NCBI GenBank assembly: GCA_964016885.1
Contig: OZ024742.1
Coordinates: 152,148,001 to 152,212,000, forward strand
Direction of reading: 5' to 3'
Length of the DNA: 64,000 nt
Source: Eledone cirrhosa
Taxonomy: Eukaryota
How positions within the stretch are numbered: position 1 is the first letter of the stretch; each line of letters begins with the position of its first letter. Shown piece by piece: positions 7,777 to 8,281 of the stretch. The notes beneath the pieces are model-generated. The model made no database searches. It was given only the letters and a program-made list of their open reading frames with translations, and was not told the origin of the DNA. The position numbers were made by a program, and so were the translations under genes.

Positions 7777-8281
7777 AAACAAGGTTTAGCAAATAAGGAA
7801 AAAGTTTCAAAATAAATTAAAAAAAATTAACATTACCTACTATAGTTACCTTTACCAATTCGGTTTCGAATCTCAAAAATAAACGGAGTCCATACGGCCT
7901 TCGTTGCAAAGAAAGATTCTCGTCAGAAGGTTCTTTACATTCGAAGAATATAAAATCCTCGAACTTAAATTACAAACTGGCGCTATTCAAAATTGTTCCC
8001 GAGATGAGAGTAAATGAAGGGGAATCAATTTTTTCAAGGGCCGAGTGCAAAGATAGAAGCAGAGGCAGGCAGGTCAGTCTGCTACCGCTATAACTAGCAT
8101 CAGTCAGAACGACCACATTTTTTTCTCAACATAGAGGAGCATAGTAATAATAGAATATGCGTTCCTACACGCACAACGCGCTAAGGGACACATGTATTGT
8201 CCAACCAAATGCCAATGTGGTTCAATGGCAGGTTAATAAATTAACGAGCCAGAAAATATATAAACAAGGTTTAGCAAATAA
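7777..8281 (-). mobile_element. Non-coding HHR-bearing element (PLE pLTR- or retrozyme-like) with 20-bp terminal direct repeat, inserted in (TA)n
   Basis: aaacaaggtttagcaaataa at 7777-7796 and 8262-8281 (period 485). (TA)n on both sides and an internal HHR. Confidence 0.75.
7848..7931 (-). ncRNA. Type I hammerhead ribozyme, canonical core
   Basis: Minus strand: ACCUU-CUGACGA-GAAUC..GAUUC-GAAA-CC GAAUU GG-UA-AAGGU. Stem I 5 bp, stem II at least 5 bp, stem III closed, GUA cleavage triplet. Confidence 0.85.

What the first reader, a model, noticed from the sequence alone, without database searches (positions are those of the whole stretch)
7777..8281. 485-bp monomer plus 20-bp overlap carrying a canonical hammerhead
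Seen: exact 20-bp terminal direct repeat, (TA)n on both sides, no ORF, and a canonical HHR (7848-7931 minus) with all three stems closed. Inference: 'one unit plus a short overlap' is what reverse transcription slightly more than once around a circular or tandem RNA would leave. The repeat is not TA sequence, so it is not a duplication of the (TA)n target.
Basis: partly seen in the sequence, partly recalled or inferred. Interest (0 to 1): 0.72.

Follow-up and report, generated by a model that had tools for sequence, protein, structure and literature searches.

The report
Hammerhead-bearing non-autonomous Penelope-type repeat copy
This is one copy of an abundant 485-base non-coding repeat that carries a hammerhead ribozyme motif and sits in a TA microsatellite; it was likely inserted by the enzyme of a Penelope-like retrotransposon, which makes it a new example of a known kind of animal mobile element.

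Summary
An exact 20-bp repeat (26 bp with flanking ATATAT; period 485) brackets a non-coding unit between (TA)n runs. A type I hammerhead lies at 7931-7848 (minus strand); 0 of 3000 shuffles gave either feature. Public DNA reads show a high-copy family. The 20-mer is element sequence, so it is not a target-site duplication. Head-to-tail joints occur in DNA of two organisms, with overlaps much longer than 20 bp. Inverted joints occur, and the RNA-sense 3' end recurs against (TA)n. These are Penelope-like element (PLE) insertion features, and PLE ORF fragments plus two other hammerhead families lie in the same window. Best reading: a non-autonomous PLE-dependent element (non-LTR retrozyme). The hammerhead cut lies 76 nt upstream of the 3' end, so a cut linear monomer cannot template this copy; a circle or an uncut more-than-unit RNA can. 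The data do not separate these, and the uncut linear route is the one shown in vitro for a PLE. Cleavage and expression are untested; this copy is predicted to misfold. New member of a known kind; I found no cephalopod report.

The parts
7777..8281 (-). Whole insert: one 485-bp non-coding unit plus 20-bp terminal overlap; ribozyme sense is the minus strand (RNA 5' end 8281, 3' end 7777); unit GC 37%
   Evidence: family-wide coverage of all 30 bins in X1, X9, X10
8262..8281 (-). 5' copy of the 20-bp repeat R, read as the last 20 nt of the preceding unit (minimal pseudo-LTR or tail)
   Evidence: exact match; in reads R sits once between the hammerhead block and the unit's 5' block at head-to-tail joints
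8256..8261 (-). AUAUAU directly after R in the RNA sense; could pair with a nicked (TA)n target to prime reverse transcription (inferred)
   Evidence: 6-nt left extension of the repeat
8185..8261 (-). Conserved 5' block of the unit
   Evidence: highest depth in X1, X9, X10; one of the two blocks shared with organism B
7960..8184 (-). Variable middle of the unit; no coding remnant detected
   Evidence: lower depth in X1, many variants, alternative loose ends at 8184; tblastn negative
7848..7931 (-). Type I hammerhead motif; predicted cut after GUA between 7853 and 7852; helix I 5 bp, helix II 7 bp plus 38-nt loop, helix III 3 bp
   Evidence: activity untested
7777..7796 (-). 3' copy of R; recurrent 3' end of the family and inferred reverse-transcription start, 76 nt downstream of the predicted cut
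   Evidence: loose ends before 7780 are (TA)n in X10 and X1
7716..7776 (.). Left (TA)n run (inferred target)
8282..8392 (.). Right (TA)n run (inferred target); any true target duplication would be hidden in TA

Best explanation
This is one copy of a high-copy, 485-bp non-coding repeat family with a type I hammerhead motif, and it was likely inserted into (TA)n by a Penelope-like element's reverse transcriptase/GIY-YIG endonuclease acting in trans (a non-autonomous PLE, or non-LTR retrozyme). Inferred steps: a PLE enzyme nicks (TA)n; the DNA end primes at a fixed site at the 3' end of R, probably helped by AUAUAU that follows R in the RNA; the enzyme copies one whole unit across the intact hammerhead and stops 20 nt into the preceding unit. 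The template must be longer than one cut monomer. I favour an uncut linear more-than-unit transcript (about 55%) over a hammerhead-cut, ligated circle (about 35%) or a template jump (about 10%). The hammerhead is predicted to be a weak, dimer- or protein-dependent type.
For: Family: 831 contig pieces in X1, and 1923 and 1751 reads in X9 and X10, mostly 90-95% alike, cover all 30 bins. Head-to-tail joints going back 482-485 nt: 76 and 74 reads summed over four joint rows, also in X1 contigs and in the single organism-B contig (164 nt of hammerhead block joined to 77 nt of 5' block). Opposite-strand joints 7943/8227 (6 reads X9, 10 reads X10) and 8067/8281 (3 reads X9), not at AATT sites, match the inverted truncated copies typical of PLEs (PMC8557442 passages). 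The 3' end recurs against (TA)n; (TA)n is a named PLE target. Cut-to-3'-end distance is 76-82 nt, against about 85-92 nt in the anole PLE (cut +26, RT start +111-118; PMC11167929). Helix I of 5 bp and helix II of 7 bp match PLE hammerheads (PMC4209133). Most reads carry letters that make helix III/loop III a perfect palindrome: 7857 changed in 385 of 400 X9 reads, 1-nt deletion at 7859/7860 in 243 of about 405. PLE ORF fragments lie in the same window. Both R copies share a letter that only 18 of 135 X9 reads have at 8264, so both came from a like template.
Against: No autonomous partner sharing this hammerhead or R was found: no genome is held, and the window's PLE pieces share no alignable DNA with the unit. 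No RNA evidence. The hammerhead helices are not predicted in this copy's full fold. The extra unpaired base at the 5' end of helix II, typical of PLE minimal hammerheads, is absent. 150-nt reads cannot show whole 485-bp multimers, and the head-to-tail joint would look the same at the pseudo-LTR/body junction of a longer element. The reads may come from a related species, not the window's own: only 20 of 1923 and 18 of 1751 are 99% alike or better.
Confidence: 0.82

Rival explanations
1. Circular-RNA template specifically: hammerhead-cut monomers are ligated into 485-nt circles, and reverse transcription runs 1.04 times round a circle. This is a sub-case of the best explanation and the first reader's preferred reading.
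For: An intact hammerhead lies 76 nt inside the 3' end, so a cut linear monomer fails as template. Both R copies share a minority letter. Circles are shown by northern blot for coral, mussel and axolotl retrozymes (PMC7229834), and more-than-unit copying from circles was proposed for PLEs (PMC4209133). The predicted fold blocks the ribozyme, which would suit a stable circle.
Against: Head-to-tail joints exist in genomic DNA, so linear more-than-unit transcripts are available without any ligation. In the only in vitro PLE system, ribozyme mutants insert normally and uncut RNA is the dominant substrate (PMC11167929). Starts are not permuted.
Confidence: 0.3
2. DNA-level remnant: a longer tandem array or a pseudo-LTR-flanked autonomous PLE was reduced to unit-plus-20-bp by recombination or internal deletion after insertion, or a short array was collapsed in assembly.
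For: Tandem joints exist in the family, and contig depth is far higher at both ends than in the middle in X1. Consistent alternative sequence leaves the 5' block at 8184 in 123 and 105 reads.
Against: The middle (8032-8116) is about as deep as the ends in raw reads X9 and X10, so the whole unit is multi-copy. No coding remnant. A 97%-identical 532-bp dimer is resolved elsewhere in this window, which argues against routine collapse.
Confidence: 0.12
3. The 20-mer is a target-site duplication made by a LINE-type enzyme that inserted a 465-bp SINE-like RNA.
For: An exact 20-bp direct repeat has the length of a LINE target duplication (own knowledge); the window holds other LINE-type RT ORFs.
Against: The 20-mer is covered by family reads at both ends (mean depth about 130-210) and sits inside head-to-tail joints in two organisms, so it is element sequence.
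Confidence: 0.02

Closest known systems
Metazoan non-LTR retrozymes (PMC7229834; bioRxiv 10.64898/2026.07.22.740005)
   Same: Non-coding, low-GC (37%) unit with one type I hammerhead; head-to-tail joints in DNA; dispersed monomers; co-occurrence with PLEs; 485 bp lies inside the 51-972 bp range of the preprint.
   Different: Larger than the 170-400 nt circles first described. This locus has a single hammerhead, so it would be a 'monomer', not an 'active dimer', under the preprint's rule. Expression, cleavage and circles are untested. Defined (TA)n target and fixed 3' end.
Penelope-like element pseudo-LTR, partial tandem and 'tail' (PMC8557442, PMC3846280, PMC8969392, PMC11167929)
   Same: Unit preceded by a truncated copy of its own 3' end; inverted truncated neighbours in the family; microsatellite target; hammerhead about 80 nt upstream of the 3' end.
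   Different: No RT/GIY-YIG ORF. The duplication is 20-26 bp against the usual 30-40 bp tail. There is 6-nt homology between RNA and target at the start site, whereas the anole PLE starts at a non-homologous site.
PLE hammerhead variants with small palindromic helix III (PMC4209133)
   Same: Short helix I (5 bp), long helix II (7 bp), small helix III that is palindromic in most family reads, which predicts dimer-dependent cleavage.
   Different: 38-nt loop II; no extra base between positions 9 and 10.1; the palindrome is degenerate in this copy.

Membership tests
Type I hammerhead ribozyme | Conserved core CUGANGA / GAAA / NUH with helices I-III, open helix I | tested here: met
   0 of 3000 shuffles
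Type I hammerhead ribozyme | Match to an Rfam hammerhead model | tested here: not met
   no hit at gathering score nor at E<=10 in 7700-8400; the long loop II may explain this (inference)
Type I hammerhead ribozyme | Active fold accessible in the transcript | tested here: inconclusive
   1.8 kcal/mol above the MFE in a 94-nt fragment; pair probabilities 0.00-0.04 in the full unit, 0.39-0.65 in the bare motif; dimer form not modelled
Type I hammerhead ribozyme | Self-cleavage | not testable with these tools
   needs an assay
Non-LTR retrozyme | Non-coding, low-GC repeat unit with a type I hammerhead | tested here: met
Non-LTR retrozyme | Multi-copy family with head-to-tail organisation | tested here: met
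   joints in X1, X5, X9, X10; joint level only
Non-LTR retrozyme | Two or more whole tandem units, each with a hammerhead | tested here: inconclusive
   this locus has one; short reads and contigs of at most 317 nt cannot span two units
Non-LTR retrozyme | Expressed as linear and circular monomer RNA | not testable with these tools
   no RNA run was available to lay
Non-autonomous Penelope-like element | Partial tandem or tail, inverted truncated copies, fixed 3' end at microsatellite target | tested here: met
Non-autonomous Penelope-like element | Ends homologous to the pseudo-LTR of an autonomous PLE | tested here: inconclusive
   no similarity to the PLE pieces in this 64-kb window; whole genome not held
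Autonomous PLE | RT plus GIY-YIG ORF | tested here: not met
LINE-mobilised SINE with TSD | Flanking repeat derived from the target, different at each locus | tested here: not met
   the 20-mer is family sequence

The most novel reading that the evidence does not exclude
Cephalopod genomes host several hammerhead retrozyme families whose circular RNAs are reverse-transcribed by PLE enzymes from one fixed internal site. An AUAUAU built into the circle primes on (TA)n, and run-on past one turn leaves overlaps of any length. These loci would be direct genomic footprints of circRNA-templated retrotransposition, a step so far proposed but not shown, and a tractable system to test it.
Probability: 0.3. 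Interest if true: 0.62.

Novelty: new member of a known kind. Interest (0 to 1): 0.32.

Why it matters
The class is known, and a 2026 preprint already argues that animal retrozymes are non-autonomous PLE derivatives. This copy adds a likely cephalopod family with unusually clean ends. A fixed 3' start 76 nt past the ribozyme cut means the template had to be uncut or circularised, which bears on the open question of what PLE and retrozyme hammerheads do in transposition. With three hammerhead families in 64 kb, the host would be a good place to count overlap lengths genome-wide. I found no report of retrozymes in octopus or other cephalopods in the searches. A 2026 octopus repeat annotation (PMC13282606) has 0 occurrences of 'ribozyme' or 'retrozyme' in its main text; its supplements were not examined.

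Tried and rejected
Whole-genome copy mapping: no genome is held. RNA evidence: no RNA holder listed, which says nothing on expression. The places where many molecules end (7818, 7825, 7956, 8027, 8239, 8242) were rejected as element ends: 5 of 6 are edges of AATT sites, and the sixth becomes AATT with the common 7957 variant. They and their mixed loose ends are best read as RAD-seq restriction artefacts. Depth sums in X1 were not used as copy number. Pattern scans of viral, prokaryote genome (33, 61) and metagenome contigs (29) gave 0 hits. One metagenome hit, L001, is a chance 22-mer inside a bacterial ORF with no further similarity. Rfam: only TA-repeat artefacts. Pfam names neither the window's PLE pieces nor most of their relatives well. 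Earlier findings of this scan: nothing by sequence, genome or relatives; one unrelated item by words. The repeat finder was swamped by microsatellites. A possible intron starting just after the cut site was considered but could not be tested. PMC12602865 (passages) gave nothing on targets.

Full report
Observation. The stretch 7777-8281 lies between two (TA)n runs. Its first and last 20 bases are identical. The match extends six bases leftwards through ATATAT, so the overlap is 20-26 bp and the period is 485; the repeat core occurs nowhere else in the window. Of 42 segments of 100-6000 bp between long TA runs, only this one has a terminal direct repeat of 12 nt or more. A type I hammerhead lies on the minus strand at 7931-7848, with a predicted cut after GUA at 7853. 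Helix I has 5 bp, helix II 7 bp closing a 38-nt loop, and helix III 3 bp. Neither the motif nor an exact 20-mer repeat arose in 3000 dinucleotide shuffles. Rfam does not detect it. The longest stop-free frames are 51 and 90 aa, and 14 PLE-like proteins plus 5 window ORF pieces gave no tblastn hit in the unit.

Folding counts against this copy being active as a monomer. The hammerhead fold is 1.8 kcal/mol above the minimum in a 94-nt fragment. Its helices have pair probabilities of 0.39-0.65 in the bare motif but 0.00-0.04 in the 505-nt linear or 485-nt circular fold. The whole strand is more structured than shuffles (z -2.75, 0 of 100).

Family evidence. No genome was held, so I used public runs: 11 were listed, none on record as RNA, and 4 were laid at 80% likeness. 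X1 gave 831 contig pieces, X9 and X10 (raw RAD-seq DNA) gave 1923 and 1751 reads, and X5 (a second organism) gave 1 contig. Most reads are 90-95% alike and few reach 99%, so they may be of a related species, or this copy is an aged one. Seven listed positions differ from the window in 92% or more of X9 reads.

Four results matter. (1) The 20-mer is covered at both ends and sits inside head-to-tail joints, so it is element sequence, not target. (2) Joints going back 482-485 nt are carried by 76 and 74 reads (four rows summed), appear in X1 contigs, and make up the whole 241-nt X5 contig, in which 164 nt of the hammerhead-bearing 3' block precede the unit's 5' block. Overlap length therefore varies between copies. 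(3) The RNA-sense 3' end recurs: loose letters before 7780 are a TA run in 88 X10 reads, and TA-rich in 11 X1 contigs. The tool hid 226 further loose ends, so other ends cannot be excluded. (4) Opposite-strand joints occur at 7943/8227 in both individuals and at 8067/8281 in one, with few starts each.

The six listed places where many molecules begin or end are not element ends: five are AATT edges and the sixth becomes AATT with a common variant, as a restriction-based library would give. Most reads also carry changes at 7857 and 7859/7860 that make helix III with its loop a perfect palindrome; the window copy has a degenerate version. At 8264, 117 of 135 X9 reads and 104 of 138 X10 reads differ from the window, yet both window repeats carry the minority letter, so they were copied from a like template.

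Surroundings. The window is a TA-rich animal sequence with several PLE ORF fragments. The piece at 12808-11931 matches 14 RT/GIY-YIG proteins, the best being one named for Octopus vulgaris at 58% identity. I infer a cephalopod host. Relatives of that piece show a Cys-rich linker before GIY-YIG, which the introduction of PMC8557442 assigns to the Neptune and Nematis clades. Two more hammerhead families lie in the window: an inverted pair at 11017-11232 and a 532-bp head-to-tail dimer at 47668-48723. None aligns with the 485-bp unit, so the mobiliser is not identified.

Mechanism. Shown: structure, family, joints, recurrent 3' end. Inferred: a PLE RT/endonuclease nicks (TA)n and primes at the 3' end of R, where the RNA continues AUAUAU; it copies through the intact hammerhead, round one unit and 20 nt further. 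The cut site is 76 nt upstream of the start, so a cut linear monomer would give only 76 nt. The template was therefore a circle, an uncut more-than-unit transcript, or involved a jump. In the anole Poseidon system, reverse transcription starts internally about 85-92 nt past the cut, ribozyme mutants insert normally, and uncut RNA is the dominant substrate (PMC11167929, main text read). Circles are documented for coral, mussel and axolotl retrozymes, but their use as RT templates is a proposal (PMC7229834, passages and sections 14 and 17; PMC4209133, introduction to discussion). I put the linear uncut route slightly ahead.

Comparison. It works like a PLE partial tandem: a full unit with a truncated copy of its own 3' end, optional inverted neighbours, and a microsatellite target that hides any target duplication (PMC8557442 passages; PMC3846280 and PMC8969392 passages). 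It meets the sequence-level features of non-LTR retrozymes. A 2026 preprint argues that these are non-autonomous PLE derivatives, reports dispersed monomers, and found cleavage in only 1 of 9 dimers tested (10.64898/2026.07.22.740005, parts 1-3 of 5 read; supplements not seen). Membership features that remain untested are cleavage, expression as circles, whole multimers, and homology to an autonomous PLE's pseudo-LTR.

Verdict. A real feature, correctly described, and a new member of a known kind. Interest 0.32; 0.62 if circle-templated insertion were shown (probability about 0.3).

Noticed in passing
window 47668-48723: Head-to-tail dimer (period 532, 97% identical) beside TA runs. Each unit has a type I hammerhead on the minus strand (47963-47831, 48496-48363) with a 9-bp helix I and an unusually long helix III of more than 20 bp; the first copy's minimum-energy fold is the hammerhead itself. 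A better 'active retrozyme' candidate than the finding; unrelated in sequence.
   Followed up: partly
window 46994-47660: 620-bp unit with a 47-bp near-exact terminal overlap, flanked by TA: a second 'unit plus short overlap'. My scans found no hammerhead in it.
   Followed up: partly
window 10973-11276: About 300-bp palindrome next to a TA run with two diverging type I hammerheads (11071-11017 minus, 11178-11232 plus), like an inverted pseudo-LTR pair.
   Followed up: partly
window 11409-12860: 5'-truncated PLE (RT C-terminus plus GIY-YIG, minus strand, frameshifted) with a 52-bp inverted segment at its ends; best hit 58% to an Octopus vulgaris protein.
   Followed up: partly
window 14045-16054 and 49908-50531: Further PLE-like ORF fragments (RT with a C-terminal GIY-YIG-like part; RT core), judged from their translations.
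   Followed up: no
window 9030-10925, 13041-13958, 26121-26656, 33484-34154, 36090-36380: Long inverted repeats and palindromes of 90-99% identity near TA runs, possibly inverted PLE ends.
   Followed up: no
window 1583-5162: Frameshifted non-LTR retrotransposon ORF (Pfam RVT_1, E 2e-23), followed by a short tandem duplication at 5242-5519.
   Followed up: no
window 7843-7852 and 8181-8184 (minus): A splice-donor-like AG/GT motif directly follows the predicted cut site, and an acceptor-like AG lies where the conserved 5' block ends. PLE pseudo-LTRs can hold introns; speculative and untested.
   Followed up: no
window 18522-18706, 19813-20011, 44614-44813, 55988-56175: Dispersed ~190-bp SINE-like repeat family at 88-93% identity.
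   Followed up: no
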